From Octopus vulgaris (lineage: Eukaryota), in assembly GCA_951406725.2 (NCBI GenBank), contig OX597818.1, positions 96,968,001 through 97,032,000 on the forward strand: DNA of 64,000 bases, given 5' to 3'. How positions within the stretch are numbered: position 1 is the stretch's first letter; the number at the start of each line of letters is the position of its first letter. A program made the position numbers and the translations under genes. The notes beneath the pieces were generated by a model. That model had not been told where the DNA came from. It made no database searches and saw nothing but the letters and a program-made list of their open reading frames with translations. This document shows positions 10,120 through 56,384 of the stretch, piece after piece.

Positions 10120-10579
10120 AATTTCTGCTTTAAAAAAGGTAATTCCAGAGTTTTACTTGTCTGGCAGTTTTACTTGATCTGAGACTGTTCGTTGAAACTA
10201 AAGCTGCGTGGAAGACTCATTCTAGCTTTTCAAAAACACACAAAAACTGTTAACTTGCTGTGGAACTGTGTCAGCGACCAAGTCGTAGACTGTGACGAAA
10301 ATTTTGACACCAAGTCAGCGCCGTCTTAAGACATAGGTACACTGTGCAGTTAACAGCGGACGTCAAGGGACTAGAGGTTTGATTATGATTTATGTATGTT
10401 TCGATTTGTTGTCAATAAATAAATATTATAGGGCCTAACGCATTGATTTGGCTGGATGCCTCTAATGCTGCTAAGACCTAGTAATAGAAGATTTAGTGAA
10501 GTTAAGTTTCTGTGCCTTCCCTTCTGTAAAAGATGATACGTTGCGGATTAAATTAAATTACCTCCCTTTATATATTTCC

Positions 10580-10800
10580 AGTAAATGCTTGAAATAGAAA
10601 AAGAGAAAATGCCGTAATCTATCGACAAATTCTGTGAATCACAGATTTCAGTGTGTGGTTTTTGAAACATTGCGGATAGAAGACCGCTAACAAAGAAGTT
10701 TTTGACTTCGTTGATATCTCAACACACTAAATTATCAGATAAGTTTCCGGGAGAGTGACTGGTTGTTCTAGCGTCTTCGCCTTGCCGAACGCTTTAATGT
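10580..10800 (+). mobile_element. Decayed CRE-clade non-LTR retrotransposon 3' end (RLE C-terminus)
   Basis: With frameshifts reads KCRNLSTNSVNHRFQCVVFETL..PLTKKFL..RESDWLF*RLRLA. DNA similar to 37860-38110. Confidence 0.6.
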
Positions 10801-11073
10801 TTCTCAAAAGAAAATTTAGAGGAGGAAAACCAATTTCTTCTGGTGTCGTGTATAATTGAATGGAGTGTACCTGCTTCTATTTTAATTATTTTTTTACTAA
10901 TAAACTTTTGCTTTTCGTTATTTATTTTCTTCCATCTTTCTCCGGTTTTTTTAAAATCAATTACTTCCCTTAGTTGCTAGGTTGTGGATAGTTATCTCCC
11001 TTAGACCGTACAACGAAACATTTTATTATAGGAAATGACTCATTACGAATGCTTTACATCAGCGGTTCTGAAC

Positions 11074-20009: not shown

Positions 20010-21570
20010 CCAGGTGGTATCAAAAAGCTCCCAGACTAGTTCTGTAGTGTGCCAACAGATGGCAGCACATGGTTATGTGCAAAGTGAGAGTCTGCAGTGA
20101 CCTTCATGAGGCAATGTGCCAAGTGATATTATTGTGTTTAGTTTGCAAGTTGTGAAATTTGTGTTTTGGAGATCATGTATATGCTGTAGTCTATGGTTTT
20201 TGTCATTAACAGGAAGTTGGAACAAAGAGCCTACATGAAATTTTGCATTAAACTTGGGAAGTCTGCAACAGATATTGAGCATGATTCAAGAAGCTTATAG
20301 TGACAAGGCAATCAGTTGTACACAATGTTTTAAGTTATTTCTTTACTGCCCACAAGAGGCTAAACATAGAGGGGACAAACAAGGACAGAGAAAGGGATTA
20401 AGTCGATTACATCGACCGCAAAAGGATGAAAGGTAAAGTCGACCTCAGTGAAACTTGAACTCAGAACATAGCAGCAAACGAAATACCGCTAAGCATTTCG
20501 CCCAGCATGCTGACGTTTCTGCCAGCTTGCTGCCTTATGTTCCAAGTGGCATGGGTGCTTCATAAGTGGAGGAAAATCCCTGAAAAACCTGCCATGACCA
20601 TCACCCCCAAAAATGCGGAGAAAATTCATCAGCTTGTGCATGGGGATCGTCAGAGGACAACCAACAACATTGCTGATGTTGTTGATCTATCATATGGGTC
20701 CTTGAAGGCAATCCTAACATCTGAATTGAACATGTGTGCCTCTGCCAAGTTTGTCCTCCACCAGCTGACCACTGAGCAGAAAGAAAATTGCACTGTGGTC
20801 TGTCAAGATCTCTGTCAGTGCACTGCTGAAGACCCATCCCTCATGTCGAGGATCATCACCAGTGAAGACAGTTGGGTCCACATGTACAACCCTGATGAAG
20901 CAGCAGTCATAACAACAGAAGGGCTTTTCATCTTCATGACAGAGCCACAGCTCAACCAAGAGCACACTCATCGTTTTTTTTCAACATCTGCAGTAGTGAG
21001 CATCAAGAATTCTTCCTCCAGCGCCAGACCGTCAATTGAGAGTTCTGCTATGATGTTTTGAAGTAATTGATGGAGGACATTCAACAAAAGCAATTGGATC
21101 TGTGGAACACAAAGAATTGGATTCTTCATGCTGACAATGTATCGTATCACTGAGCTCTCCTCACATGTGAGCTTCTCGCCAAGCAGAACATAGTATCACT
21201 TCCACACCCACCCTATTTACTACACCCACCCTATTCGCCACACCCACCCTATTCACCACACCCACCCTATTCGCCACACCCACCCTATTCGCCAGATTTA
21301 GCACCTGCAAAACTTCCATCTCTTCTCCAAAATGAAAATGCAGCTCAAAGGTCGTTATTTCAACGCAGTTTTCAAGATCCAGAGCCAATCCCAGAAGGTC
21401 CTCTCTTACAGAAAACAATTTCCAGGCTGGATTCCAAAAGTAGCAAGAAAGCTGGAACTGATATATCACTGCACAAGGTGACTATTTCAAAGGAAATGAT
21501 GTTAAAACTTAGGTAAATAATTTATTTTTCATTAAATATAACTAATCCAGGAACTTTTTGATACCACTTA
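20010..21570 (+). mobile_element. Decayed mariner transposon with nested SINE (20335-20537)
   Basis: TA flanks, TIRs gtggtatcaaaaag(c/t)tcc. Transposase remnants DRQRTTNNIAD, SAKFVLHQLT, RIITSEDSWV, LHADN and HPPYSPDLAP. Confidence 0.88.
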
Positions 21571-25674: not shown

Positions 25675-27395
25675 TCATCATCATCATCATCATTTAACGT
25701 CCGCTTTCCATGCTAGCATGGGTTGGACGAATGACTGAGGGCTGGCGAACCAGGTGGTTGCACCAGGCTTCAATCTTGATCTGGCAGAGTTTCTACAGCT
25801 GGATGCCCTTCCTAACACCAACCACTCCGAGAGTGTAGTGGGTGCTTTTACGTGCCACCGGTACTGGACCTCACTCGAATCTTTTTACACATGCCACTGG
25901 CACAGATGCCAGTAAGGTGATGCTGGTAACGATCACACTCGAATGGTGTCTTTTACGTGCCACCGGCACGGAGGCCAAATAGCTACTTTGGCAATGATCA
26001 CGCTCGGATGGTGCTCTTTAAGGCGACGCTGGTTACAATCACACTCCAATGGTGCCTTTTAAGTGCCACTGACATGGAAGCCGCTTAGCCACTCTGTCAA
26101 TGGTCACACTCATATGGTGCTCTTTGCACCCCGCTAGCACGGATGCCAGTCATCAAATTTGATTTTGATTTTTGATTTTTGATTTCACTTGCCTCAACAG
26201 GTCTTCGCAGCAGAGTTTTAGTGTCCAAAGAAGGAAAAGGTACGCATAAGTGGGATGGTAACGCCCCTGGCATAAGCCACAAGATTATGGTCTCATTTGG
26301 CTTGCCAGGTCTTCTCACGCACAGCATATTTCCAAAGGTCTCGGTCACTAGTCATTTCCTCGGTGAGGCTCAAAGTTCAAAGGTCATGCTTCACCACTTC
26401 ATCCCAGGTCTTCCTCTTCCTGGGTCTACCTCTTCCACAGGTTCCCTCAACCGCTAGGGTGTGGCACTTTTTCACACAGTTGTCCTCATCCATTCTCGCT
26501 ACATGACCATACCAGCGCAGTCGTCTCTCTTGCACACCACATCTGATGCTTCTTAGATCCAACATTTCTCTCAAGGTACTTACACTCCGTCGAGTATGCA
26601 CACTGACATTACACATCCATTGGATCATACTGGTTTCGTTCCTTGCGAGCTTACACATCTTCTCAGCAGTCACAGCCCATGCTTCACTGCCATGTAGCAT
26701 GGCTGTTCGTACATATGCGCCATACAGTCTACCTTTTACTCTGAGCGAGAGGCCTTTTGTCACCAGCAGAGGTAAGAGCTCTCTGAACTTTGCCCAAGCT
26801 ATTCTTATTCTAGCAGCTACACTTTCAGCGCACCCTCCCCCACTACTGACTTGGTCACCTACATAACGGAAGCTATCAACTACTTCAAGTTTTCTTCCCT
26901 AGAATGTGGCGGAAGTTGTTATCTGCACATTTTCAGTGTTTATTGCTCCTGAGCATCTGCCACATACAAAAACTATCTTCCCCGTTAGCCTCCCTTTGAT
27001 ATTACTGCATCTCTTATGTGTCCATAGCTTACACTGGGTACATCTTATAGAGTTTCTACCTATGCCTCTACTACAGATTGAGCAGGGCCATCTACCTGAA
27101 GGGATTTGTGGTTTGCCTGCCTTTCTACTTATTAGGACTTTGGTTTTAGCTAGGTTAATTCTAAGGCCCTTCGATTCTAATCCTTGTTTCCACACCTGAA
27201 ACTTCTCTTCTGGTTCTGATAGTGACTCAGCAATTAGAGCAAGGTCATCAGCATAGAGGAGCTCCCAGGGGCATCCTGTCTTGAATTCCTCCGTTATTGT
27301 CTGGAGGACTATGATAAATAGGAGGGGGCTGAGAACTGACCCTTTGTGGACCCCTACCTCTACCCTGAATTCTTCAGTGTACTCGTTGCCAACTG
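25675..27395 (-). mobile_element. 5'-truncated RTE LINE (RT C-terminal half, ORF2 end, 3'UTR)
   Basis: ELLYADDL near 27250, GLRINLAKTK, GSEAW, LRWYGHVARM, RGRPRK and a (GAT)n tail. Confidence 0.92.
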
Positions 27396-29290
27396 TGTAA
27401 AATAATGCAATCTTCTCATCAGGACAGAAAGAGAACCTATCTCAACAACAAGACATTATAACAATTTTGATGACTGCATAAATGATAAACAGAATGCTAT
27501 TAAGTATTTTAAAAAAACTGTTAGTAGATCTGACGTCAAAGGCAGACCCTAGGAAGAGAAGGGGTAAAGAAATATTAAGTAGAGAACAAATAAAGAGGGA
27601 TATATTGGTTAAAAAAATGTTCAAAGGCTTGGAAGTAGATTTCTCTATTGAAGTAAAGTGCAACTATACAGACTGGTAAAAATCACTTATATGAGCTAAA
27701 GGTATGTTTCTGCCAGTGCTTACATTTGTAAGATCGCTCTATATGTGTGTTAACAAGACAACAATAAAGATTTTAAGTTAGATTGGTTCATCCTGTCCAT
27801 ATCTTTCCCTTATGATAAGGGCAAAGGATTTTGTAACATTTGCAACTCTGAACTCTTCCATATTCTCTTCTCTAAGAATCCTTCATTTTCAATATCATCT
27901 TTTCCACTTTATTTTATTCCAATTTTCTCTTTCCGTATCTCCAGTTATCTTTCCCTCCCCTCTGATGTACATCTTTGCTTTGCCATTTCTCAACTTTTAA
28001 TGCACTTTTATATCAGTCACTCGCTCCCCTCTCACCCTTTGTCCCCATTCACTATAACCAACCCTAAGAACCCCTGACCTCCATCTGTCGATGTACATAT
28101 CTCTCTCTTCCTCTGCTCCACCCTCCCTCCTCCCACATCATCTCACTATTTGATGATCGATCTGCAGACTTATTATATTCCTGTTTAACTTTTTAAGAAC
28201 GACCCTATCCTTTTATATAACTATTTCTCTCTTTGACCAGGATGCAGGTATGGCTGTGTCGTACGAGGCTTGCTTAACAGTACTGTCCCACCTTCAGCAA
28301 GTGTCTTCTTCTATAGACCAGGGCTGATCAAAGCCTTGTGAGTGGATCTGGTAGAAAATGAAAGAAGCATGGATGGATGAATGGACACATGCATGCATGC
28401 ATGTATCCTTTTATATGATTGTCCTCCCCCACTACTTGAAAACCAGCATTGGTTTGTTTACATCTTGCGATTTGGCAGGATTTAAAATATTGCCAATAAA
28501 AGCACACACGCTGATTATATTTTACTTCAACTAAATCACACTTTAAAAAAATTAGTACTGTGGTTGATTTGTTCAACTCAATTCTTCAAGGCAGTGCCCC
28601 AGCATGAGCGCAGTCTAATAACTGAAGCAAGTGAAAGATAGATGTTAAGCAAATACTAGCATATATCAATTCATTTCTCTATTTCTTCCTGAAACAACTG
28701 TTGTCCTCTTCTTCTCTAGTCATATTCTCCTCTTCTAATTCTTTTATGGGGAAAATTACTGGGGATCCTTTTGGCAGCATAAAGATAACAATTGTCTCTT
28801 CTCTTCTGATAATTCTTTCAAGAACTGGGAATTTTTTTTTTTTTTGTTTTTTAAATTTTCTTACTAGTCTTTTTCTTCTCTCTCTCTCTCTCTTTCTCCA
28901 TATGTGTGTTTTACTAAGAATACAAAAATAATTTCTTCATTCTGCTAATTCTGGTACATTAACTTCCTTTTTTAGTGAGACTTCCTTATATTTGTGCATT
29001 ATCTGTTTCTTTATTACCCACAAGGGGCTAAACATAGAGGGGACAAACGGATTGAGTTGATTACATCGACCCCAGTGCATAACTGGTATTTAATTTATTG
29101 ACCTCGAAAGGATGAAAGGCTACGCATTTCGCCTGGCGTGCTAAAGGTTCTGCCAGCTCACTGCCCTAGTTCCTTATATTTGTGTATTATCGTGTGTGTG
29201 CGCGCACTCTCATGTTGTAAGCCATCTATCTCTTGGTTTATCATAGTATCATATAACAAAGATAATCATATCTATTTTTTGTTTTTGTTT

Positions 29291-35239: not shown

Positions 35240-35454
35240 ATAAAAATCCTTAAGTACCGGGACGTACCAGTGAACCATTTCTTCTAACAAATGGCGTCCT
35301 CGACGTTTGCAGGTGCTGGGCCGCTAACGGCGAAGTTCTTAATGAGATGTCAGGTGATGCCTGTGAGGGCGCTTGGCTTTTCCAACACCTTAGCCTCGCC
35401 ATCACCCGTGGTAATGCCGCAAGCGTGCTGGCTTGCTTTAGTAGGTTCCGTTGA
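35240..35454 (+). mobile_element. Decayed CRE-clade non-LTR retrotransposon 3' end (RLE C-terminus)
   Basis: KILKYRDVPVNHFF*QMASSTFAGAGPLTAKFL, then after a frameshift SGDACEGAWLFQHLSLAITRGNAASVLA, matching the CRE-type FQRLSxAIQRGNA terminus. Confidence 0.75.
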
Positions 35455-35609
35455 ACTTGTGGTATGCTACTAATTGAGGCACTTGGAGTTGAATTGAGTT
35501 TTTCCTTTCTTTTTTATTTTATTTTCTCCCGGTTTTGGATCTATATCTTTAGTATGGTTTTGCGTTATATTCCAATAAAATGTTATATGTATATTGCAAA
35601 TCTGAAGAG

Positions 35610-35752
35610 CCTAACCGAAAAGATACCCCGTAACCCTTAACCATAATCCAAAACCTGAACCCTACCCTATGTCTCTAATCCTAAACTGTAACCTTCAAGA
35701 CAAATCTAACCTTAAACCCAATCCTAACTATAAACTAAATCCAATACTAACC
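35610..35752 (+). repeat. Degenerate telomere-like (CCCTAA)n tract
   Basis: Runs of cctaac, taaccc, aaccct, atcctaa and acccaatcctaac with about 6-nt periodicity. Confidence 0.6.
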
Positions 35753-37589
35753 AATGATGTCTTATAAATAGTATTAAATTTAAGTAAGTGTTACTGCCTG
35801 CACCAGAAAAAAAAATGAATTGTACCCTCAAATATTATTTTGGGACCGTAAGGTTTGGATTCCCAATACACAAAGAGCAGTCCGAGTAAATGAGAGAAAA
35901 AACATCTCCAAAGTGCTGGCCAGTGGAATTGAACCTGGAATATCGTTGGCTGCATCGTAAATTTCTTTACCAAATAGTCATGCCTAATTTAAAAGGTTCT
36001 TCAAATACCTGTTTTGATGTAAACGCTTAATATACTTTTAATTCCGCCGAGGTCAACTTTACCTTTCAATATAATTTACTTATCCCCCGACCTCTGAAAA
36101 CTGCTTGCCTTGTGCCAAAATTTGAAATAAATATTTCCATAGTACTTTAATAGCAATTTTTGGGATAGTTTTTTTAAAAAATCATAAAATAACTCATGTT
36201 TAGTAAGTGGAGATCTGATCTTAAATCGAACTTGGAATACGAAAATGCCCAGTTGAAAGATAAACAAAAGCCCACTTTCCTTTCTCTATTTGCAAAAAAG
36301 AGATCAATTAGAATATTATGAAATACAAATAGATATTAGGGTTTTTTTTCTTTTATCTTTCACTTGTTTCAGTCATTAGACTGCAAACAAACACACATAT
36401 ATATATATAAACAGACTTCTTTCGGTTTCTATCAAACCTACTCGTAAGGCTTTGGTCGACCCAAGGCTATAGTAAAAGTACGTTCCCAATGTGCCACGCG
36501 GTGGGGCTAAACCCGAAACTATGTTGTTGGAAAGCGAACTTCTTACCATACACCCACACCTTTTTTTAATTTTTACCACAACCACACACAAAGATACATT
36601 AAGTCCTACTCCGAAGGCGATGGAGATACAGGGCTCGTCCGGGTTAAGATACCAATGTTTTGCTTCGTAAACACCAAACGAACTTTAAGAACGTCAAAAG
36701 GACAAGGCACGACGGAGGAAATCTTGGATGCGTTTCTACTAAACTACCGAGCTACGCCAAACCCAGTGTCAGACAACCGCCCACGTGCCGAAGCAGATGA
36801 ACGGTCAGTTATGGTTAACTCAAGATAACAGATACTACGTCAGTTACGTGAACTGAACGTGCAAGCGGATGAGCACTCCACAAATACGCGTATCCTTAAC
36901 GTAGTTTTCAAAATACAGTGTCTAACAGACATTCTGTGTCATGCTGAACTCGGAACGTAAAGACGGACTAAATGCCGCTTAACATTCTGTCCGTCTTGCA
37001 AACGATTCTGTTGGCTCACCACCTTAATAATCATAATTTATTCTTTGATTGACAAAAAGATACTAATCGAAGTGTGCGATAGTGGATTAAAGCGTTAGAG
37101 TTGATAATCAGTTGGAATCTAATAAGTTCTGGTGTGGAAGGCGGCGAATTGACAGAACGTTAGAGCAAATCCGTTTAGGTTTTGGTTTCAAAAGGAAAGA
37201 CTTCCTCCCGTGCCCCCCCTCCATTTTCTCGTAATTTTTTTTCTTTTCTTTTTTTCAATAACCTACGTCTCCTATTAAGGCGACTGATTGGCAGAATCAT
37301 AAAAGCGTCGGAAACGGTTAAATGTGTGTTTTTGACGAACGTAAAGAATACGTATACGCGGTGCTTAGGGTTAGGGTTTTTGTTACGCCGAAAACGAGTG
37401 GTGTACGTATTCTTTTTACATCCGCCGTGTTTTTCATTCCTCCGGAATTTATCCAAAAAGTGCAAGCCAATTGTTAGGGTCGGTAGTATTGACTATTTAC
37501 CCTAAAACTTGTTGGCCTTGTACTGAAGTAGGTGTTATTGACGTAAGCTCTGGAGTTAGCCAATGCTCTGGAGCTCTTTACAGATTTAT

Positions 37590-38030
37590 CCTGTTGACTG
37601 AATACAGATCGCTATAAACGTAATCATTAAATGAACCGGCAAATGAGACTGTCTAGCGATGATGAGAAGGGCCCAATAGACTTACTCTTTATCCCTTGGG
37701 TTAGAAGCCAATGCCTGATACGGGAGACTACAGTTAGCTGCTCATTTGCTCTATAACAAGTCTTAACGCTACGGTGGAGGTGAGGAAAGGTAATTGCACT
37801 CCTAACCAAACGAAATATGACACTGAAATACAGTATTCCTTCAGTAAATTACATTCTTCAATCTTTGGCCTTTAAAATGATGCGGGTGCCGGACTACTGA
37901 CAAGGAAGTTTTTTGACTTCATCAAGTGTCCTGCCTCACTGAAGCATCATATAATTCTCGGGAGTGCGCTTGGTTGTTCCAGCATCTCAGCCTGGCAGTT
38001 ACGGGTACTAATACCAGGGGTGTTTGCGGG
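37590..38030 (+). mobile_element. Decayed CRE-clade retrotransposon restriction-like endonuclease domain
   Basis: EP..RLSSDDEKGPIDLLFIPWVRSQCLIRETTV..LKYS..NYILQSLAF..AGAGLLTRKF..RECAWLFQHLSLAV aligns by eye with the CRE motif EPxGLxRDDGKRPDGLTLIPWxxGxxLxWDxT..KxxKY..FxPxAxET..FQRLSxA. Confidence 0.75.
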
Positions 38031-38131
38031 GTTTCTTATTAATCTTTAGAGGGTGAGGACACTAATTTCTCTGGTGTGATGCATAAAGGAGCGTTCATGT
38101 TTCTGTTTTCATTATTTACTGGTTCCTCATC

Positions 38132-38193
<62 letters not shown>

Positions 38194-40974
38194 CTTACTA
38201 TATACATTTGTGAATTATGTTCTTTTACCAGTAAAGTATTTTCGCTTTGTAATCTATGTCAGTCTATTACAATGTTTTTCTTCCAGGATACATAACACTG
38301 GCTACCCGTGATATGCACTGTAGTGAAGAAAGAAATTTAATCCAATTTCATTCATGATTTGTATCAATTTAAATGGGTTTTTTTTTTAACTAATGAAGTC
38401 AATAGACATGGACATCTTTTGACAGATATCTCTTATGATAAAAGTCAAACAACTGATTCCTGTGTCTATGCGTGCAGGTATCTATATAAAAACTGATTAA
38501 ACCAGCTGTTGTTGTAAAGATGCAAATGATCTCTTGGTGTCCTTTTGGTCTGTCTTGTAAGTATAACGCAGGTGTCAGGCCAATCAGAGCGATGGTCAAA
38601 TTGTGCTGTCTCAGTATATGCTGGAGCCTGTTAAGTTGTAAAGATAATTTAGCTGAAGATCACGAGTTAAATCTATATCCCTCGGATACAATTTGACTCC
38701 GATTCTATGTGATACAGATCAGATCCGTGGTCTTCTAAATGACGAATCCAATCTAAAAGGCTCTAGTTTATACACGAAGCATCGCACTTTTCAATGGATC
38801 ATTTGAGGAAAGGACGACATAATCGTTAATTACTTGTGCTCTATCGACCAAATAGCGAACCACCGTGAGTGTCAGCCCATAGTATTCAATGTTACACAGA
38901 CACGCATGCAACAGTTGATAAAATCTGAAAACTCGAACTAACAATGTGCCCTAACCCTTGTTTCTTCGCTAATGATTTTCAATGGTTGTAAAACGACGAA
39001 CGCAATTAGTAAATGAGCTCTATATAGTCTGCATAAAACAAGATTTTATATTTTCTACATTTTTCTAATCGGTTCCTTGAACTATTTCAAAAAGCATCTT
39101 TATCTATGACGTAATTTACATAGAGAAACTTCGAACTAGACACACAAAAAGTTAATGAAGCATATTCGGTATTCATGGACTGCATCTCTTCATATTTGTA
39201 GCATGGCTGACTGATTTAGTGGAGACAAGCAAGAGTTCATTGATGAGATATTATCTTTTAGTCCTTACAGTCCCTATTAACAATAATTTATTTAAAAATA
39301 TTGCTGGTCATGACTTATCCACACAATAAGCTTATTTATTTTTCTTTGGATAATAAACTATTAAAGAGGTGGGGGCGAATTTGGTTTTGATATTGATAAC
39401 AAAAATAAAAAGAGCAAACTATCAAATTTTTGTGTAAACATAGAGATTGGACATTGAAACTATATTATCACTGAATTTTGTACAACACTTTATAATCAAC
39501 CTACCAAATCCTTATCGATTAATCGGTTGCAAAATTCGTTAATCTAAATGTCTATTTTCAGAGCTTAGGTAGTAAGATTATATAATTTCTAAAGAGTTGT
39601 CGTTTCAGTGGATCGAAATTGACGTAATAGAGGTTGAATTCGATGGAATTGGGGGAGACCACCTCCACTTCGGTCAAGAATAATGATGACAAATGTTTTA
39701 AAAACAAAATAACTGAAGTTTCTAGCACGTTTTAGATATTCGTGTCGATCCCAAAAATCATTTGCGAAATAAAACTCTAACGGAAACTGACTTTAATGAC
39801 TACTATATCATGCACATGAAAAATTACGTAATTAAGATTTTAGCAATGACAGCAATCCCACCTGAAATATATGGGGATAGAGGTAGTGTGAATTTTTGCA
39901 GATTTCGAGAGAATTAACTAAGCTTAAGTCGAAGAAAATAGTTCTAAGTGGGAAATGAAACTGCTATACAATTTAACAAACATATGCTTTCTGCATCGAT
40001 ATATTTTTATTTCTTTTATTTATAAGTTTAGTCCTGGTCCACCAGTTGGTCCATATCCATTTGAACACATTAAAAATTCAAAGGGGTTTCTGCTTTCAGT
40101 TACTAAAAGTCATTATTTCAGATTAAGAAGGGTAGTTTGTTAAAACCATCTATTTTTATAAAAAAAAAGAAAAGGTTTTTTTATCTGAAATAAATCTCGC
40201 CATTAAGCGTGAGGTAAGCTTCCGGATTGAGCCCGCGAACCGGTTTCGATTCTTAGTGTAAGTTAATTTACTTTACGAAAAACGCTAATATTCTTGTGAA
40301 CACCATGTCTTGTTATTTTCATTTTCAAATTTATAGCTTTAAAATCTTAAAAGTAAATTAATTGCCCAAGTCTATGGTAACTGTCATGTAAGAAAGGTAA
40401 GCTACCGGCGAGTGGAGACGGTGTCGCGGTTTCGATTTAAGGTTATTATTATACGAGAAAGAATCACAATTTCACTTCACATTATAAATATGAATCGCTG
40501 ACCATGGTATAATAGCGATATTTCTAGTTTTCCAACACACCTACGAAACTGTGTTAGTTTCCTATTTCAAAGTAATTTTAAAAAGCAAATATATCAAATG
40601 TCCCTCGTTTCTCAACTGTTTTCGTAAAATCTGTTATAATACATGTTATATATATTGCTGTTTTTCTTACTAAATTTTAGGCATCCTCACTTAAACGAAA
40701 AACTACTAAATCTAAGTATTTTTAGGTGGGAGCATATGAGAGTAAAAATTATGACAAAAATAAACGATTCATAAAGAATTTATCATCATTAGATATTCGA
40801 AAGTTTGCATAACAGAGTTTGTGTTTTTTATGCGTATATTCGTACCAATAATAGATTGTATGGCTAAATTTTGTACAGAATATTTAAGAGACACGTAAAA
40901 ATTTATTTAACATATTCAAACACTTGATAAGTTAAACACGAATATTCCTACGTAACATGATGGCTTTGGCAATT

Positions 40975-41494: not shown

Positions 41495-44400
41495 GTATAT
41501 GTTTTCCCTCATCTTTGTCAATTTTTTTATATTTACAGCAAACAACATTGTGTAATTGATCGTTGTTTTGTATGAACCGGTCACTATTTATCGTTCCCTT
41601 TACCGCCCGTCTACTATGCCCCCTTTCCTATGATACCGTCCACAACTTGTGTGTCCTCTTTTAATACTTCGAAATTCATCTTTTACTTTCACTCCATCGA
41701 ACCAATTTAGCATTTAATTTTATTTAGATAATATATTAAATCACGAAATCGTTCCGATATGTAGTTTTATTCAGTACCATGGAGGATTACATGACTTCAT
41801 ATGTATGTGTGTATACATATGTATGTAGTATGTATGTATATTGATGTAGGTATTTCCCGTGACGATAGTTACTAATAGCTTTCAATTTTTCCTGTTCTCA
41901 TCCCATAAACTAATTTAATTTCTAGTTATAATTTTATTGCCTTACTCTGACCCTATTATGACTAATGTTGATTAAAAGTAAGACATTTGGAGGGGCCTTC
42001 TTCAACGTAGATTATAATTTTAAGTAAGATTAGTTGGAATATGGCAACTTATTTTTTTTTACTTTCTGTTTAACTACTCGTATAAAATATCGAAGAACAG
42101 TTCATAAATACAACGGTTCTCTCTCTTTTTGTTGTATCCTTTGACTATCATACCTTCATTTAACTAACAGGTCGTCTGTTTTTATTTCCAAATTTTTAAT
42201 TCCACTTTTCACTTACGGTTCATCAAAGAGTAAAAGTGTCAAATTCCTATCACTATTACGGTATATTTTATTAACCGATGTATATGTTTGTTAGATAACG
42301 TCATTGCCAGACTTTCTGAAAAAATTGAGTTTTAATAACAGAATTCGGAGCGAAATGATGTACAAATTTCGTTAGATTATTTTTGTTACTGCCGTTTTTA
42401 CCCTCCTTTTTTTACCGAATGAAATATTTACAAACTCGTTGTTACGCACATATTTTGGAATATAATAATAATAATAATGGCCTTTCTATAGGTTATCTTT
42501 AAAAACTTTATTATTATTTTAAAGCGGGGGGGGGGGGCGTTGTAAGAATTCTTTGGCTGGAATTCTAAAATGTTAATCTAACTCCAACTAGGCCGTTGTA
42601 ATATTAAGAATGGATATGATATACTATTTCTTTTTTGCTGCTTTTTTTTAATGAAAATGCTTCGAAGGAAGACGAACTACGTCTTGGTCACATCCAGCTC
42701 ACATTAATCAATATCTTATGACTTTCTCATTAAGTCACTCTATTTTATGGTTTGCACTACCTCTTAATTTCTAAATGATATTTTAAGGCGTCATTTTCTA
42801 TTAAAGTTTATCACGTCATTTAATGCTAAGTCAGAACGCTTTTTTTTTTATCGTATGTGGTATGTGTGTACATAAAGAATTTCAGTATTTTTGTCTAAAT
42901 TAGTTATGGCTTTTGCTAATGCTACTGCTATCGTTGTCATTTTATTAAAGATGCAACAGTGTAGTTGTATGGTCCCTGTGAACGAAATCTCCAACCCGGT
43001 TTCAAATTTTGTTTGGAGCCATTCCACATCATTAACTCAATTTCACATTTTGGGGTTTAATTTGAATTGTAGAGTTCAAGTTTGAAAGAAAAGGGGGAGT
43101 AGGAAGATTTCTTTCATATCTATTTAGTTTCGAATCGTAGGAAAATTAATATTCTGTAAGATATACCTGAAATCTCAAATTTTGGAATGCTAATTCTACA
43201 GTCCCGGCGACGCATCTAAAATGCTACAATCAATTCGCTACGAAAGAGGTTTAATAAATGGCTTGTTTTTTTTTTTTTTTACAACGCTAAATTTTCAGTA
43301 TTACTGAATTTAGTGTTCTTTATTTTTCAAACTTGATAAGTTTTGTGGTCCTTTGTAAGTATTTGTCCGCTATCTTAGTAAATGTTTAGTATCTGTCAAA
43401 AGATACTTCCGTTTTCATTTCAATTATGTCAGCTGAACTAGTTTCCATTCTTATTCTGAATGACCCAGCCTTTTTTTTTTTTTTCCCGACTATTAATCTT
43501 TAAAAGATTATTTCGGTTTCTGATTTGTAATTGTGTATTCTAGCTTGTCAAAACTATTTGTACTTTCAATTTAAGCCACACACACACGCACACACACACA
43601 CACACACACTGTGTGTGTAATATATGGCAAGTGGCTTCCTATAGCCTTGTGAGTAGGTTTGTTAAAGGAAACTCGAAGAAACCTGTCGTGTGTGTGTCTC
43701 GCCTTGACATTGCACATTAGTTGTAAACGATCAGTAGTCATACTTATACAAGTGATGTTCCTTTCCAATCTTGCCGGACCCTGAAGAAAAATTACTTTGC
43801 TTGGAAACTAGAGTCGGGGACAGGAAGGGCATCTCGTTGTAGAAAATCTTCCTCGGCGATTCCATCTGACAATGTTTGTATGGAAAAATGAACGTTAAAA
43901 CGATATATTTATACACAAGCTTTTAATGATTTACTCTGCTGGTGGATGTCAAATTTTTTATAGATGACGGTTGACTCACTTGGCTCTTTTACATGTACTC
44001 CCCCTCCCCCCGAAGACTTCTCACTAGTTGCTTGACAACTTTCACTTGTATTAGTGTCAGAAAAGAACACCTGGTATTTGCTATAAAGTGGTTGGCATTA
44101 GGAAAGGCATCAAGCCCTAGAAACTGTGCCAAAGTAGTTATTACAGTTCAATGAATTCTGTCAAACTGTCTAACCCATACCAGCATTGAAGGCAAGTGTC
44201 AAATGATGTACTGAGGTTGATGATATTGGCTAAACCCCTCTCCTCAAAATTGTTGACATTGTACCTAAATTAGAAATGCTTATTACAAGGCATAAGTTTC
44301 AGCTATGTAGTATTTGTCAATGTAGTAAAAATGTTTCTCTACTGAAGTATTTGAGCAACCTTTCAATTTAAAGTTTGACTGATTTATATATAATGTCCCC

Positions 44401-46849
44401 CATACTCAAATTAAATGGGAGCTGAAGAAGGAGACCAAGAAGAGCTTGGGACAATGAGTAGACTAATCTGAGGACATTACAGCTTATGCAGATGACAAAA
44501 GACTCTTGACAGATGATTCATGGTGCTGAAGACTTGATGATGGAAGCCCCATCCAAAAATGCAAGCATGGTAATTAGAAAGTCCCAAGAATGGTGGCATT
44601 GATGTAGATTGAGAAGGTCATCATCTTAATGTCCACTTTTTCATCTCTCATGGGTTAGACGAAATTTTCTGAGGTAGACTTTTTAAGGTTGTACATCTCA
44701 CATGTTTCCAGGTAAGATGATGCTTATTTACGAGCATGTGATGACAAGGCAAAACAAATATAATGCATCAACAACACACACACATGAGTGGTTGGTGTTA
44801 GGAAGTACATACAGTTCTAAAAATCAATCCAAAAATGAAATTTGAGTGGGATGCTGTCCTGCAAACTATCTTTGACTGTGGTGGCCTGTACTAACCATGC
44901 TAGTATGGAAAGGAGACATAAAACTGATATATAAAATTCAACCTCACCAATCTTACTCTGGAAGCCTTTATATAAAATATTACTTCCACAACAAACAAAC
45001 ACTATCAAAACAGGATACTTACATTTTCAGTTATCCTTTTAAGTATATTGTCATATCCAACTTGGTAAAACTGTTCCTCAAGTTAGGGAACTTAGGAAAT
45101 GGCTTGTAAATCTAGAGACATAGGCTTCTTTCTCTGTCCCCCTCACCATTTTTTCCAATTTGTGTGGGCCTTAAAATAACTTGGATCATTAACATTGACT
45201 CTGGAGTGGTATTTTTATATGCTAACGACCCACTTCTAAACTATCAAAAAGGTGCTGTAAAAGTGAGAATAGTTTTGAAGTAGGGGAAAAAAAAAGAATT
45301 GGTGACATAAACAAGACTCCAAAACTATTTAATAATCAGGTACATTAGAAACTTAAGTACTGTGTATTGGTATTTGAAAAATGTTATTAAAAATCACCCT
45401 TGTAATTAGCCATTAAAATCCCCCCCCCCCCAATCTCTGTTGGATATTCTTTCTGGTGTTCCTTAATGAACTGAATATTGGTTCTTATTTCAGAGCAACT
45501 AGTTTTAGTTTTATACTTTGTTTGCCAACATTCTTTTATACCATCATAAGATATCTCGAGTAATAAGCAATACAGCATCTTAATTTTATTAGATTAGTTT
45601 CGTTTGAAGTATATCAAATGTATCCTGGTAATTAAATTTCAATGCACTTTTACTAAATTTTTTTAGAGCAGTCTCTCAGAAATTTCAGTTAATCTTAAGC
45701 AACTTATTCTTTGATTACAGAATAAGTTGTAATTTCTTTAAAACCTTTTGGGGTCTCTTGAATTCACAAGTAGCTACTATTAGTAACAGAAAAAATTACA
45801 TAAATCTGTCACTATGCCTTTCATGTAACAATTAGAAAATATTCATTACATTTAGCTTTGCAAATTTTATGCAATTATAATTCAGTTTCAAAGGGGGTCC
45901 TTACTGCCCCCTCACAGGGTACTAAAAACCATGGCCATGGTAAACAATACAGATATTTTAAGTTCCTGTCTTCTATCATACTTTAATCTCTCAACACTTA
46001 GTATAAAGCCTCCTCTTCTATTCTCACTCAGTTGAGGAGGCTTTATAGCCTGGTATGTTGCATGGCAACTTTACTAATACTGGCACCACAAACAAAAGCA
46101 CTCAATTCATTCTGTGGTTATGGTTAGGAAGGACATTCAGCCATAGTACCATGTCAAAGTAGGCTTTAGAGTACAAAGCAGTCCCCTGATGTGCTGGACC
46201 CTGTTGAAATGTCGACCCTATACCAGCATGAAAAAGGTTTAATGCTGATTATTCACTACCTTTATATTATATAGAATAAAAGTTGGTGGCAGTTATATCC
46301 TAGTGTTTCAGCTGGTTGTTTGACAAAAAATATTAGGAAACACTGGTCTAAACTAATTATGAAGGTTATTTTATTTTAAAAATATTTCTCCATTTAAGTA
46401 TCCTTCACAGGTCATCTTTCTCCTTGATTCCTTTTTGCTCAAATTTAACAATCATTTCCATTCTGCATTACTATTATAATGGTTCAACACTTTTTCCTAT
46501 ATTTTTGTCACTGCTTATCAAATCCAGAAGCATGGACTTAGTAACAGATTTTCTGCAGCCCACTTATTTGCATCATATTACTAGCATTTGTTAAACTCTT
46601 CAGTTTAATTAGTTTATTTCATCTTGTGTGAATAACAAAGCTAATAAAATGGTATGCAAACCATATTGAGATTTCTGGTTTTTCTTGCATATAAAACTTA
46701 GCACTGAAATTTTTGTAGTTATTTTTCAAAGCTTCTTTTTTTCCTAAAACAACTTTGAGCTGCTGTATTGGGTAGTTGATTACTCAAATCACTGTACTAA
46801 AAGATTTATCCATTTTTACTCTTAATATGCCTTAAAATTGCAAGTGATA

Positions 46850-48200
46850 CCTTCATGCATTGCACAATTCCCAAGCTCTTCTACTGCCTAAACTGCAGCC
46901 AAACCTAATTCCTTGTCAAAACAAATCTCCAACTTTTCCTCCACTTCCCAACAATGATGGTTGTGAGCAGCACCCCTTCAAAGGAAATTTCCACTTGTGC
47001 TGGCCAATTTGCATGCAATATTGCACTGTACACACTTGGAAAATCTCTCTTTACATTAAATCTATCTCCTTCCACCCATTGAATTCAACATTTTGCATAT
47101 ATGCACATTGAATATCTTGGGTGCTTCAAACCAACAAGGCCACCAGTCATGACTCTTCTTTACTATCCTTAAACTTCATTCTCCAAAGTTCACCTAATTC
47201 TGATCTTAGTCATGAGCCTATCCCATTCCCAAGAAAGAAAGCCCTTTGATACCTGCAGTTATTGTTCTATTACACTCACTTTCAAAGTCTCATGTATTAG
47301 AGACATCCAATTGCAACATTCTCCAACACCTTAAGTTTTGTTATTTAATACTCAATACAGCTTCCATAAAGATCCACCGAAAGCTTACTTCTCTATGTCA
47401 CCCATCACTGGGTGAAATTTGAAAGCAATTTTGTTGTTAGTATATGAATCTCTAATTGAAACTGCTTGCCCTTGGACTCCATTTGCCTCTTATCTTGGAT
47501 CTCTGCAAGCATACCCCTCATCCTATCAATATAGCTGTCCCCCATGGTTTTATACTTCAGTGTTCTACTTGCCATGATATCCAACAACATCCATGTTTAT
47601 GCAGACAATAGGTTTCTTCCCTAATTGTCTGTCTTAATTCCATGAACACTGAGAAGGTATGGGGACATACTAACCTTTTCTTTCAACAGCAAACACAAAC
47701 ATCATATCAGGAAAGCAGCATGCAACTAAGCCCTTGCTATCTCCAAGTTTCTTTAATAGAAAAAGCACATCCTTATGTAGTTAAAGTCTGTATCAAAAAG
47801 ACTGGCCCTTCTTTTCACAGTCAAAAAAATAATTCAGACCCCAGGAATTACTGACACTCTTCAAAGTTCAGACATCCTCTATTGTTCCCACATTTGGTAC
47901 AGTACTCATGTACACAAACATCATAGACTGCATCCAGAGAAAGACCTCTGGTATAAGTTCACTCTCATGTACCAGCCTCTGACCAACTGAAATGCTGTTT
48001 CTATCTTTTCTATCACACTATATACCCCTATATATAACTCCAGCTCCTTAGACTGTGTAGTGTCATGTCACCTCTACTCAGTCACTCCCAACTTATACAT
48101 TTCTCATTGTCCATGTTCTGTCCTTCTCAGAATATCAACCCTCTAGAATTCCCTTTCTTGCAAGTGTGAACTTGCAATAATTTAAGTCAAACAATAATGG
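46850..48200 (+). mobile_element. Ancient LINE (CR1/Jockey-like) RT relic
   Basis: Scattered motifs IHVYADN (about 47590), YCSHIW (about 47880) and DCIQRK (about 47927). Confidence 0.45.
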
Positions 48201-51200
48201 CATCAGTTTCACAAATGTTGGAGAGCCTGCAAAGGCTATAGTTACTGTCTTTTCTGCCATGCCCAGTAAGTATTGAAAAAAAAACCCACCCAAGCTCAAT
48301 TGGTTCATGACTTGAGTGGATGGGATAAAATCTCTTGCATACAATTGTTGTAGGTAACATTTTCTGAAGTTTTATTGTCCATCAGGTGGGAATAAGTGAT
48401 AAATCTGAGGACCCTTGAATCCTGCATATACATACATGTATTTTTTTGGTGATAAGACAAAAATTGCTATTAATTGGTCCAAGTATTTATAAATATTAAG
48501 CATTTGAATTTAGAAATAAGTGCCCAAGAGCAAGAAACTTATGGTTTTGATTTTTTTTGTTACAGATATTTACATTTGAGAAAAGCATGTGCATTGGGCT
48601 TGTGTAATCCCCTTTATTGTAAATAGTGGCTTTGTATTTAACTCCTATTTTATGGTTTTATCAGAAAAGGTCATTTTCCACCCCCATTTGACATATTTAC
48701 TTACATAGTTTGCAAATCCAAAGGTTAAATTTTACTTGCATTTTAAATATAACTGAAATAATTATAATAAATTGGAAAGCTACATAGAAAATATATTATG
48801 AAAAACTCTTCCTCAAATGGTATGTTTGATTATAAAAGTTAACCATTCATTTCTTATTGATCTCATTCGTTGCAATCTACTAGCTACAAATTATGGAAAT
48901 TACATTTTGTTTGTAACCTCAGGTTTATCCCAGGTCAAACAGACCTGAGGTGTGTGCACAGTTGGTTGAATAACTAGCTGTGATCCATAGCTTCAGATCT
49001 ACCATATCTCCATTTAGTTGAGATTATACTGCACATTCTGATGCTGTCCACTATCCAGCTTGATTTTGTATGTCAAGATTTTTTTCTGGTATCCTCAGCT
49101 GAGGCAGGCGCAGAGAACTGTTTCTGAAAATGACTAATCATTTCATGCATTTGTGTAACATTAGCTTTTCCTGTTAGCTTTGGTAAGGTATTTCAAATTG
49201 TATATAGTTTGCTTTAGCAATTGTTATTCTCCAGTTCCAGATGGATGCTTTCCACATCAAAATGTAGAATAACACTTATTTTCTGCAAAGCATTAATAGC
49301 GCAGTGCAGTGTTTAATGTACTTGTATTATTATGCACTTGACTGTTCAAATTTTTTCTTATGCTGACCTTCCATGCTGCAAAATGGAAATTGTATTTTAA
49401 AAAAATATGAAGCTCTATCTCAGCTCTTTATATATTTATTTATTAATCTTAGAAAAGTTATTAAATCAAATATCAGCATAACTTAAAATCATATTGACAT
49501 GATAGTATTAACACTTCACTTGCGCACTCTTTTCATCTCCTTGACTGTTGATAGATATCCTTTCTGAGAAACTTAATGCATTTGAATAAGAATAGGTCAT
49601 TTGTATACTTTGGCTATTGTCAGAAAACTAATATTGTTGGCTATTTCATATTTACCCTACAGGTTTCAATTCAAATGTCAAAACACAATGTATTTCACTG
49701 ATAAGAATGTTGGGAAGAAATTGTCATTTGTTTGAATAAAGCTTTTGTTTCAAAGAGCCAATGAATAAACAAGGAATGATTAGATAATACATGATATCAG
49801 AAACTTTCAGGATTTGAAATATAACTTTTCAAATACTTCCTTCTTTACTCTTTGATTCAGCTAGTTGAAATGGTTTAACCCTTTTGCATTTAGACCAGCC
49901 GTATCGGACCTAAATATTCTGCTCTTAAGTTAAAACTGGCCTGGTCTGCCCTCTCATAGTCATCCTACCATGTTATTCTAAAACTAAATAATCACATTGT
50001 TGAAATATTGAAGCAACATGACAATGTATAATTAAGTCAAAACACTCATCACCATTTAGTGTTTGTTTTTCATGCTGACATGGGTTAGACTGACAGGAAC
50101 TGGCCAGCCACAATACCACACTGAGCTCCAATGTCAGCTTCGGCATGGTTTCTACAGTTTGGATGCCCTTCCAAATGTCAACAATGTGACTACATAAGCA
50201 ATATATTTGACACAGTAACTTGAATGCTCAATTGTTAATATGCATTTAATATAATTTTCTTTCACAGCTAATTTCGTTTTTATTCTTTTACTGAATCCAG
50301 CTAGTTTAAACTGTCATTTGTATACATCATATCTGTACTAGTAGTCTTCTCTTTTGAACACATCTGATTCCTCTTACATCATGTTTCTTCTCAGCCCATT
50401 TCTGTTCTGTTGTTTATGTACATGAAAATTGCACTTCCAATAGAAAATACATGCACATGTTTTGCTGTTCATGTTTCACTGCTATAACAATATATTTTAT
50501 ACACAAACCTCATACAAACTACTTTTCATTCAGATTAATTTCTTTGTTACTAATAGAGGTAATAGCCCCTTGAACTTTTAAGCCTGTTTTACTCAAGCTA
50601 TTAAACATATGGAATACCACCCTCTACTGATATAAGAAACTGCCAGTCAGCTTTAGAAATGATGGAGCATCCAGTTCTAGGAACAATGCTAAAACAATTG
50701 AACCTGGTGCAACTTGTGAAAAACTGTCCAGCCCACGCCAGCATAGAAAATATTAAATGATGATATAAATAAAACATTTAACTGAGTAACAAATGTCCTT
50801 TGGTTTACAATGTAGTTGAGTTCCATTTATCCCCAGTGGTATTTGAAATTGTGTATTTTTAACAATATCATTAGGAATGCATTCCCCTCAATTCACTCAA
50901 ACAAAATTTGAACAATTATTTATTAAAATGGGAATAATACAATTTTGTGTGCATGCATGCACACACACACACACACACTTTTAATACTGGGTTATATATT
51001 TCATCCAAAATAATGGCGTAACTTTTTTTTTTCATTTACATATTGTTATTGCATATCTATGTGTTTTATAACTATTAAAAATCCAGCCATAAATTTTTTG
51101 TTTATAATAACCATTTTCCAGAAAAATTGACAATTGAAATTTAACAATTCAATCTCAGATATTTAACAAAATATATGTAAAAAAAAAAACAATTCTAATT

Positions 51201-51934
51201 TGTGCTAGTTTTAGTGTAGCCTAGCTAGCTATAGAAGTGAAATGAAAAGCAAATGAAGGAAGGGAATACAATGAAGTGGTGTTTCTGTATGCATAAAATA
51301 ATCTATTAAACAGCAAACTAAGGAACAACTGTGTTGTAGAAAGTTATGCAGATTTTTTTTTTATCTCTATGTATTGGTAAATAAGATTTTAAGAGTATAA
51401 TGATTTAACTGAAATTTTTATTTAAAATGACTAATATTTCAATGTTATTCTGGAAATAAACAATCATATCATTGAAATTTGAAAGCCATATGATAATGCA
51501 GGATTAATTAAAAATGATATAAATAAGCATTACATTTGACAGGGTGAACCATTAAGGTGTTGCTTCTTGCCCAAATAGGTATTAAGTTGATATTTTTTTC
51601 TCTCTTCAGTTATTTAACAATTTTTTTCTTTTGCAGATTTTTTTAATAATAATGTTCCACTATTTGTCATATAAGGGAATGCTGTCAGGTCCCTTTGTTT
51701 TGGGATTTTTTTTAAGCCAGTCTTCTTGGAGGTCATTTTATATGTAATTAAGCTAAATTGTTGCACTAGTTGCTGGTGCAGTAAGCAGTAAATAATCCCT
51801 TTTAAGAAATCAGTCTTTTTACAAGTTATATTTGAGAAAATGGATTTTAGTACTGCTAAGCAAGACATTACTTGTCATATCTCAACTTAATTGATTTAGC
51901 CATTGAAGAGACTAGAACATCAGTGGTGACAATA

Positions 51935-52992
51935 TGAGGGTCGGCTGAAAAGGTCATAGATTGATCAAGATACCTCCAAGGAATGTGACCAAATGAGGTT
52001 TATTTTTCAACAGTGTCCCCCTTGTGGTCCACACACTCTTCCATTAGTGCTTTTACCCCATTGTTGAAGCTTTCATCCTGTTGGTCAAAAAAGTCAGCAG
52101 CAATGATGTCATTATCACAGCATTACTGGTTCTCAGCCAAGTTTTTTTTTTTTTTTTTTTTTTTTTGTTGTTGAGGAACAGATGGGCCTGCTCAGGAGAA
52201 TAGGGAGAGTGATCAACTAGTTCAAAACCACAGCAGCCATAACTGCCTCAGCAAGTTAGCATGCTACTCTCCATTGATGGTATGGCTCTTTTGAGATAGT
52301 CAATAAGCACAATACCATTTGTGTCCCAAAAAACTGAGGCTGTCACCTTCCCTGCAGATGAAACAACCTTCGCCTTCTTTGGAGCAATTGAGGAAAGGTG
52401 TTTTCACTTCATGAATTGTATCTTTGTCTCTGATTCAAAGTGCTAAATCCAACACCCAGCTGGGTTAGGAAATTTTCAAGGAAACCAACTGGATCTGCCT
52501 GAAACAGATTTCCCTGTGATGTATTCATCCTGGTGCATTTTTGATCTGATGTCAGAAAACATAGCACCCACCAAGCAGAAACCCTTGTCATCAGTTCATT
52601 GTGCAGAATATTCTTAACTCTGTTGTAGGCTGTGCTAATAGCATTGGCTGTTTGATTTATAGTTAAATACCTGTCCTCATCACCATGTGGTGAACACAAT
52701 GTTATTCTTGGCGGCAGTTGCAAGACATCCAGATGTTGGGTCATCTTCTAAGTCGACATGTTTGTCCTTGGTTAGTTAAGCCATTTTTCTGCAAGTACTT
52801 GATAACATAACGATGCCAGACTTTGTCCATTTTTAAGAGAAGTTGTTACTAGTTACTTTTGAAGTCTTCGTTATATAGGCAGATGTCAGTTTATCTAGAA
52901 AGAAACTGCAGTTATTAAGAAGAGTTGAAACTAATGCATGCAAAATTTTATAGCTCTAGCATGACTCCATAGAACTTTTCAGCCCATCCTTG
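51935..52992 (-). mobile_element. Decayed mariner transposon
   Basis: TA flanks, TIRs gaggg..gctgaaaag. ORF 52409-52744 carries EDRYLTINQTA..RVSAWWV..FLENFLTQ (mariner WVP/TGDE region). Confidence 0.8.
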
Positions 52993-53491
52993 TACAGTGG
53001 AGTGTCTGGTAGTCTTCCTTTCTGTATTGCATACAATAATGGGGTTTCTTTTGTAAGCTTGCACAGTAAAGAAAATGGAGTGTCTATTAAATACATTAAA
53101 AAATTAATTTGGCAAAATGTGAAAAAGTTCAGCTGCAAGGTATTTTTAGTTGTATACTAATCAGTTTTCTCTTCGTAGATGCAACAAACTCAGGTATGCT
53201 ACTTCTGTATTGATTACAAAAGCTTCATTGTACTTTAAACCATTTACTGTTTCCACCCCCACCCACCCCTTGAGTAAAAGGAAAGATTGCTTAAATGTAA
53301 GTTATTTGGGGGAAATTGTCTATCTTGTTAGGCTCAATTTTTAAAAATTAATTCATTATTCTAGAAATATTCAAAATTATTTGATGAAATTAGAGCATAT
53401 GTAATTTTTTAAATATATATTCCTTGCAATATAATTTTTAGTTTTGGACAATACCAGTTATTACAACAGGACGTCTAAAATTTAGTTTGAT

Positions 53492-54217
53492 CAGTGATTC
53501 TCATCCTTTTGTAGCTCAATGCTCCCATTCACTGAAAAAATCTTAATTTTGCTCAGTGGTTTATTCATATTTTATACAATCCCATCCAGTATGTGCTTTT
53601 GGATATTTGCATGGAAACTACATCCTGTGTTAATCTTTTTTTTTTATGACTATTACTAAAGACAAGGATGTATAGAACAATGCACTAAGTGCCTGTAAAT
53701 TGAAAAGTTAGAACAAATGACGTTACATCTTAATTTTAAAAATACTATCGGCTTTATTACTGGTGTTAATTAATCAAACATTGCTATTAGGCTGTCTTTA
53801 GAAAAAAAAGAAAATACAAATTATACTCCGAAAACTAATGGTTGGTTTGTTTGATCAGGTTCTCTTTTTGTCAAACAGTTTACCTTATGTATTTATATCA
53901 TACTTCACTAACAGTTGTACTAAAATGTACTGAATCCTTTATAAACCAGGTACGGCTGGGATACTAACAATTTTACTTCCAAAATAGGGGTGTTTGTTGC
54001 TTAAACGATAATTCTTCACAAAATGATCTTGCTTTTGCTCACAATGTCCTCGTTTTAATCTGAACAAACAATTTTGTGTAGATGTTTAAAATTTTTTTTT
54101 CCTTTAATTTCCCAAAAGAAAATCACACCTAAACACCCAAGTACCACTTTAACATTTGCTACCCCCTTGTTAACCCCCTAGGCCTCCATTGAGGTGCTAC
54201 TAAGTTAAGAATCACTG
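53492..54217. mobile_element. Old hAT-like non-autonomous element
   Basis: CAGTGATTCT ... AGAATCACTG termini. TSD degenerate. Confidence 0.5.

Positions 54218-54372: not shown

Positions 54373-54489
<117 letters not shown>

Positions 54490-56347: not shown

Positions 56348-56384
<37 letters not shown>

What the first reader, a model, noticed from the sequence alone, without database searches (positions are those of the whole stretch)
37590..38190. Hidden CRE-clade (RLE) retrotransposon family: three decayed copies not resolved as a coding domain in the ORF track
Seen: reading through stops and frameshifts recovers a restriction-like endonuclease domain (..SDDEKGP..IPW..LKYS..LAF..AGAGLLTRKF..AWLFQHLSLAV). 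The same C-terminus recurs at 35240 and 10580, all on the + strand and all in CpG-retaining DNA. This copy runs into a (CT)n(TA)n tract. Known: CRE-clade elements are early-branching non-LTR retrotransposons that are often site-specific (spliced-leader genes in trypanosomes, telomeric repeats for MoTeR and Cnl1). Inference: three copies in 27 kb indicate a once-abundant, possibly repeat-targeting CRE lineage in this genome.
Basis: partly seen in the sequence, partly recalled or inferred. Interest (0 to 1): 0.7.

Follow-up and report, generated by a model that had tools for sequence, protein, structure and literature searches.

The report
Dead CRE-like retrotransposon tails, dispersed
These are three broken tail ends of an old, many-copy jumping gene (reverse transcriptase plus restriction-like nuclease, likely of the CRE kind) that lies scattered through the genome and shows no sign of aiming at repeats, so it is mostly an ordinary genomic fossil.

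Summary
The three sites (A 37586-38240, B 35242-35580, C about 10520-10930, all +) are 5'-truncated, dead 3' ends of a single-ORF RT + restriction-like endonuclease (RLE) LINE. A better-preserved copy's domain folds like the R2 RLE (Z 15.6). Full-length copies elsewhere are about 3.6 kb and carry PHD finger - RT - CCHC - RLE; none seen is intact. There are three subfamilies: A and C belong to the oldest, B to a younger one.

Repeat targeting is not supported. A microsatellite follows 1 of 22 mapped 3' ends (15% in random DNA), a telomere-like tract follows 1 of 91 copies, and A's (CT)n(TA)n tract probably lies inside its own 3' UTR. Abundance is moderate: 948 candidates, and 1 hit in 800 kb of random DNA.

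CRE-clade membership is likely, but no RT tree against named CRE proteins was possible. CRE types are already reported in cephalopods. Side results: 4 of 92 copies show L1-style 5' inversions, and copies cluster mildly. This scan noted PHD-bearing CRE-like elements before, in other genomes.

The parts
37586..38030 (+). Copy A: decayed coding 3' end (tail of CCHC knuckle, RLE core, C-terminal helix), with stops, a deletion and two frameshifts. The catalytic PD and D positions are not intact. Oldest subfamily.
   Evidence: tblastn with P0005 residues 822-935 and 953-981; protein profile; DNA profiles; tree
38031..38240 (+). Copy A 3' UTR, T-rich, homologous to the UTRs of copy C, L002, L184, L186 and L191. 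It probably continues about 50 bp past the microsatellite.
   Evidence: MAFFT alignments; the post-tract bases score 50 against L186, reached by 1 of 3040 random windows; the other 5 comparisons were weak or null
38132..38191 (+). (CT)n(TA)n microsatellite, aligned as an expansion inside the pyrimidine-rich 3' UTR and probably not the target site
35242..35580 (+). Copy B: about 340-bp 5'-truncated 3' end with one frameshifting deletion, stop codon at 35452-35454, and a UTR ending at AATAAA (35574-35579). Younger subfamily S2.
35627..35750 (+). Degenerate CCCTAA-like tract about 45 bp downstream of copy B; the only such case among 91 copies
10518..10931 (+). Copy C: most decayed 3' end plus UTR, oldest subfamily, detectable only as DNA

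Best explanation
The three sites are dead, 5'-truncated 3' ends of a dispersed single-ORF non-LTR retrotransposon whose full-length form (about 3.6 kb) encodes a PHD finger, reverse transcriptase, CCHC knuckle and restriction-like endonuclease, likely a metazoan CRE-clade element that would have inserted by target-primed reverse transcription at AT-rich sites without a fixed target sequence. Shown: homology, domain order, RLE fold, three subfamilies, variable 5' truncation, 3' ends at AATAAA plus 0-3 A, unique 3' flanks, and no intact copy among those scored. Inferred from the R2/L1 mechanism: the RLE nicks DNA and RT copies the RNA from its 3' end, usually stopping early; this gives short 3' fragments like these three and, in 4 of 92 copies, an inverted 5' part (twin-priming geometry). 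Inferred: A and C inserted in an early wave and B later, and A's microsatellite grew afterwards in its 3' UTR.
For: Colinear RT-to-RLE matches in long copies. Pfam RVT_1 on the L065 RT frame, E 1e-5, below the gathering score. AlphaFold model (pLDDT 89.6): all 7 Foldseek hits at E<=0.001 are R2 proteins, and VIA Z is 15.6 (rmsd 2.9, 196 aligned) versus 7.1 for the best non-R2 row. A profile of full-length relatives ranks R2 (1e-25) above L1 (3e-11) in the PDB. The ordered C-C-H-C, RH, E, [RK]PD, D motif occurs in 127 of 142 relatives. 5' ends are scattered and 3' ends fixed. A microsatellite lies within 100 bp of 1 of 22 mapped 3' ends versus 609 of 4000 random windows. A telomere-like tract follows 1 of 91 copies versus 4 of 2000 windows, p 0.2. 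Tree end branches: old group 0.22-0.5 (A 0.29, C 0.5), S2 0.06-0.18 (B 0.18), S1 0.04-0.12.
Against: No named CRE, SLACS, MoTeR or Cnl1 protein was available, so the clade is not shown by a tree. The published CRE/SLACS motif spacings matched 0 of 142 relatives; three spacers are off by one and the residue after RH varies. Target-site duplications, reported for all known CRE elements, were not detected above control in 26 copies; one nested copy shows a possible 24-bp duplication. Second copies in flanks are more frequent than in random DNA (5 in 357 kb versus 1 in 800 kb, p 0.012), so insertion or retention is not fully random. Only 22 of 92 copies had a mappable 3' end, one of them (L037) a doubtful motif match, and none belongs to the old subfamily of A and C.
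Confidence: 0.82

Rival explanations
1. A repeat-targeting CRE lineage (microsatellite or telomeric repeat).
For: A runs into (CT)n(TA)n and B is followed by a degenerate CCCTAA-like tract. RLE clades are mostly target-specific (PMC4640811 passage).
Against: Microsatellite at 1 of 22 mapped ends versus 15% in random DNA, and 14 of 92 versus 31% in the UTR/junction window. Telomere-like tract at 1 of 91. UTR homology resumes after A's tract. C has no such tract.
Confidence: 0.06
2. An RLE LINE of another clade (Hero, R4/Dong, NeSL or an unnamed sister of CRE), mislabelled CRE from motif resemblance.
For: No reference tree; motif spacers differ from the published CRE/SLACS pattern; no TSD signal; Hero and Dong types are also reported in cephalopods.
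Against: The RT motifs QQGDPxGP (96 of 111 long relatives) and YLDD (101 of 111) and the short RLE tail ending in an 'FQRLSLA..RGNA' helix are what I recall for CRE-type elements (label recalled, not from a call). RepeatMasker CRE types are reported almost only in cephalopods among molluscs.
Confidence: 0.15
3. Insertion was steered by chromatin through the N-terminal PHD finger, giving clustered copies in unmethylated DNA rather than a sequence target.
For: PHD-like finger in full-length S1 and S2 copies (Pfam PHD E 1.1e-4, 22.6 bits, under the cut-off of 24) and in 36 of 111 long relatives by pattern. Mild clustering (p 0.012). Three copies in 27 kb here versus 0 in 80 kb of neighbouring DNA.
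Against: The CpG shift is not significant (9 of 73 versus 20 of 80 flanks below 0.4, p 0.06), and faster decay in methylated DNA would give the same trend. The finger has N where ING-type readers have the cage Trp before the His (recalled). Clustering can come from selection. Between 3 and about 480 windows with three or more copies are expected genome-wide by chance.
Confidence: 0.15
4. Chance peptide similarity, or a local duplication of one fragment.
For: B versus C is not above control; C has no protein-level signal.
Against: Strong profile hits for all three, none on reversed DNA. A/C and B fall in different well-supported groups. The self-comparison of the window shows no shared flanks.
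Confidence: 0.01

Closest known systems
CRE clade of RLE non-LTR retrotransposons (CRE1/CRE2, SLACS, CZAR; related fungal MoTeR, Cnl1, FoTeR). PMC3636483, PMC12857005 and PMC4640811 seen as passages.
   Same: Single ORF with RT followed by CCHC and RLE; same order of conserved residues (C,C,H,C; RH; E; R/KPD; D).
   Different: No spliced-leader or telomere targeting; no detectable long TSDs in most copies; motif spacers differ by one; N-terminal PHD finger where FoTeR has C2H2-type fingers.
R2 retrotransposons (R2Bm, R2Tg; PDB 8gh6, 8ibw, 9dou, 9nl2, 9nl3)
   Same: Closest solved structures for both the RLE fold (Z 15.6) and the RT profile (E 1e-25).
   Different: R2 targets 28S rDNA; only 13-17% identity in the RLE; this family is dispersed.
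RepeatMasker CRE types in cephalopods (PMC10294476, section 7 read)
   Same: CRE-type LINEs are reported almost only in cephalopods among molluscs. The nearest named hit to this family is an Octopus vulgaris hypothetical protein at 58% identity.
   Different: The section gives no sequence, domain or target analysis, so identity with this family is presumed, not shown. Its supplements were not read.
L1 5' inversions by twin priming (Ostertag and Kazazian 2001; seen only as a citation and one passage in PMC6895275; geometry recalled)
   Same: Inverted 5' segment abutting the 3' segment, with a small deletion or duplication at the switch point (4 of 92 copies).
   Different: Here it occurs in an RLE element, not an APE element.

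Membership tests
RLE-type (R2/CRE group) non-LTR retrotransposon | Single ORF with RT upstream of a C-terminal endonuclease | tested here: met
   Long copies align colinearly with RT+RLE proteins P0005 and P0032. The window copies keep only the 3' part.
RLE-type (R2/CRE group) non-LTR retrotransposon | PD-(D/E)XK restriction-like fold preceded by a CCHC knuckle | tested here: met
   The model of the L056 frame matches R2 RLE: Foldseek E 1.4e-5, VIA Z 15.6, rmsd 2.9, 196 aligned.
RLE-type (R2/CRE group) non-LTR retrotransposon | No LTRs; variable 5' truncation with a fixed 3' end | tested here: met
CRE clade | RT phylogeny grouping with CRE1/CRE2/SLACS/CZAR | not testable with these tools
   No labelled CRE protein was returned; no Repbase or Dfam on hand.
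CRE clade | Published REL motif C-x1-3-C-x7-8-H-x3-4-C-x9-10-RH[D/N]-x19-33-E-x9-21-[R/K]PD-x12-14-[D/E] (PMC12857005) | tested here: inconclusive
   A near-literal form of the pattern matched 0 of 142 relatives. The same residues in order occur in 127 of 142, with spacers 9, 8 and 15 instead of 7-8, 9-10 and 12-14, and a variable residue after RH.
CRE clade | Target-site duplications (reported for all known CRE elements, PMC3636483 passage) | tested here: inconclusive
   No excess over mismatched pairs in 26 copies (mean 7.4 versus 7.5). One possible 24-bp duplication in L115. Copies are about 20% apart and 5' ends are imprecise.
Site-specific CRE elements (SL-targeting, telomere-targeting MoTeR/Cnl1/FoTeR) | Shared target sequence at insertion junctions | tested here: not met
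   22 mapped 3' junctions are all different, only AT/T-rich; no microsatellite or telomere excess.

The most novel reading that the evidence does not exclude
A lineage of animal CRE-like LINEs has given up sequence-specific targeting: it carries a PHD finger at the front of its RT-RLE protein and inserts dispersed, chromatin-guided and L1-like, including twin-primed 5' inversions, which my literature searches did not find described for RLE elements.
Probability: 0.15. Interest if true: 0.55.

Novelty: new member of a known kind. Interest (0 to 1): 0.22.

Why it matters
As it stands, little: these are dead fragments of a repeat class already reported in cephalopods, with no host gene found nearby. 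The family is of modest specialist interest as a dispersed member of a group usually described as target-specific. Its PHD finger and its L1-style 5' inversions bear on how RLE elements choose sites and complete second-strand synthesis. Intact-looking relatives with PHD fingers (P0032, P0040, P0042) would be the material for testing that, not these copies.

Tried and rejected
Pfam and PDB sequence searches on the RLE domain alone gave nothing. The ESM Atlas gave only unnamed eukaryotic clusters. Rfam found 0 families in the window and three long copies. The TSD search was run twice: the first (17 copies, no gaps) mis-set at least the L115 5' boundary; the second (26 copies) found no excess. 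DNA searches with A and C found 3 and 1 matches; they were too insensitive for the old subfamily, which was reached through L002. Microsatellite and telomere targeting were rejected. The first CpG test (p 0.027) used non-independent windows and fell to p 0.06-0.12 with one window per locus. L008 and L021 were left out of the inversion count as ambiguous. A weak hit at 36576-36659 (- strand, E 1e-3) showed no convincing frame and was not counted. Literature: no paper held all of CRE, PHD, non-LTR and RLE. One paper held twin priming, inversion and RLE, and it mentions twin priming only for L1. No Repbase-style Cre-1 names were found. PMC8967140 has no mention of CRE. Two classification papers were not held. 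Subscription papers and Repbase Reports are outside the library and may describe this family, its PHD finger or its targets.

Full report
Observation. The six quoted peptides lie in the three + frames of 37640-38030. Copy A aligns with copy C at 69% over 364 columns (score 192; shuffle maximum 74; window-control maximum 78.5) and with copy B at 108.5. B versus C alone (69) is not above control. All three are hit by DNA profiles built from copies elsewhere in the genome, with no hits on reversed DNA. A protein profile from 142 outside relatives detects A and B but not C. The window lies in a 2.8-Gb, 227-contig genome. The nearest named relative is an Octopus vulgaris hypothetical protein at 58% identity.

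What it is. A 38-residue piece of B found 948 candidates genome-wide; all 150 scored were matches. Longer copies extend colinearly into an RT. Two copies share a 5' start, which gives a full length of about 3.64 kb (L065). The order is PHD finger, RT, CCHC knuckle, RLE, then a T-rich 3' UTR that ends at AATAAA with 0-3 further A. Pfam RVT_1 and PHD hits on the decayed L065 frames are significant but below the gathering scores. A structure predicted for the 221-residue L056 frame (pLDDT 89.6) matches only R2 proteins at E<=0.001 (7 of 7). Its VIA Z is 15.6 and 14.7 to R2Tg and R2Bm, against 7.1 for the next row. A profile of 40 full-length relatives ranks R2 above L1 and group II intron RTs in the PDB. 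None of the 46 scored (of 7205) candidates for a full-length query was intact; that search used a stricter first look and is a floor. In A, the positions of the catalytic PD and D read PI and E, with stops and two frameshifts.

Subfamilies and age. A DNA tree of 45 rows gives two well-supported younger groups, S1 (end branches 0.04-0.12) and S2 (0.06-0.18). An old group (0.22-0.5) is separated from them by a 100/98 branch. B is S2; A and C are in the old group. S1 and S2 are about 66% identical, and copies within each about 80%. So the three window copies record at least two waves of insertion.

Abundance and clustering. Eighty arbitrary 10-kb stretches held 1 hit in 800 kb, and 80 kb beside the window held none. 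That is about 1.25 per Mb (95% range 0.03-7), or low thousands of detectable copies. Three in one 64-kb window is then expected in 3 to about 480 windows genome-wide, so a selected window can show it by chance. Independent second copies in the flanks of 90 loci numbered 5 in 357 kb, against 1 in 800 kb of random DNA (p 0.012). Two of the five lie in or at the 3' UTR of another copy (L115, L012).

Target site. Of 92 distinct copies, 22 had a mappable 3' end. Their flanks are all different and only T-rich (48 of 88 T at positions 2-5). A microsatellite followed within 100 bp in 1 of 22, against 609 of 4000 random windows. A degenerate telomere-like tract followed 1 of 91 copies (B itself), against 4 of 2000 windows (p 0.2), and preceded 0 of 88. 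For A, alignment with old-subfamily UTRs places the (TA)n run as an insertion inside the UTR. The 50 bases after it match L186 at a score reached by 1 of 3040 random windows; the other five comparisons were weak or null, so this is probable, not certain. The CpG o/e of flanks is slightly higher than random but not significantly (median 0.82 versus 0.74, p 0.12). TSDs were not detected above control in 26 copies. L115, nested in another copy's UTR, shows a possible 24-bp duplication interrupted by 12 bp.

Mechanism. Shown: anatomy, truncation pattern and junctions. Inferred from R2 and L1: the RLE nicks the target, RT primes on the nick and copies from the RNA 3' end, and early stops give short 3' fragments. 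Four of 92 copies (L029, L031/L164, L089, L115) have an inverted 5' segment abutting the 3' segment within about 7 bp. In profile coordinates the switch points show 9-, 183- and 33-nt gaps and one 68-nt overlap. This is the geometry I recall for twin priming. The sample was chosen by similarity and many loci have only 1.5-kb flanks, so the rate is rough. The role of the PHD finger is untested; by recall it lacks the cage Trp of ING-type H3K4me3 readers.

Comparison with what is known. [quoted passage not shown] The published CRE/SLACS motif (PMC12857005, passages) is matched in residue order by 127 of 142 relatives but not in spacing. CRE types are reported almost only in cephalopods among molluscs (PMC10294476, passages and section 7; supplements not read). 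No labelled CRE protein could be obtained, so the clade rests on that report and on recalled RT motifs (QQGDPxGP in 96 of 111 and YLDD in 101 of 111 long relatives). The finding works like a dispersed RLE LINE and is probably a CRE-clade member (about 0.8). It fails the site-specificity test of the classical CRE elements. Searches for a paper on PHD-bearing CRE elements or on twin priming in RLE elements found none in the held library. This scan's own notes already record PHD-bearing CRE-like elements in other genomes.

Verdict. Real, correctly recognised as an RLE LINE, dead and dispersed, and not repeat-targeting. It is a new member of a known kind, interest 0.22.

Noticed in passing
L029, L031/L164, L089, L115: 5' inversions with twin-priming-like geometry in 4 of 92 copies of an RLE element; L008 and L021 are ambiguous.
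   Followed up: partly
L065:3346-3645; L120, L108, L123, L111: PHD-like finger at the front of the ORF in full-length S1 and S2 copies; 36 of 111 long relatives have one by pattern.
   Followed up: partly
P0042; P0015, P0111, P0212, P0242, P0263: One relative has PHD plus an RFX DNA-binding domain before the RT; several others carry a ubiquitin hydrolase (UCH) domain in the same protein.
   Followed up: no
L065:2710 and L120:2764: Both full-length S1 copies begin with a poly-T run followed by TTTCAG, which resembles a splice acceptor (recalled).
   Followed up: no
L115:3751-6263; L012:341-1766: Nested or abutting insertions of one subfamily in or at the 3' UTR of another; L115 shows a possible 24-bp target duplication.
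   Followed up: partly
window 44000-64000: CpG o/e drops sharply from about 1 to mostly below 0.3, suggesting a methylated (possibly gene-body) domain; no long coding ORF was seen there.
   Followed up: no
window 26377-27441 (-), 6122-6547 (-), 20459-21061 (+): RT fragments of another LINE (RTE-like by recall) and a mariner-like transposase remnant (by recall).
   Followed up: no
window 11074-11428: Near-perfect inverted repeat (97.8%) formed by two head-to-head copies of an abundant short repeat, just downstream of copy C.
   Followed up: no
window 36576-36659 (-): Weak hit (E 1e-3) to the family profile; possibly a fourth tiny fragment or chance.
   Followed up: partly
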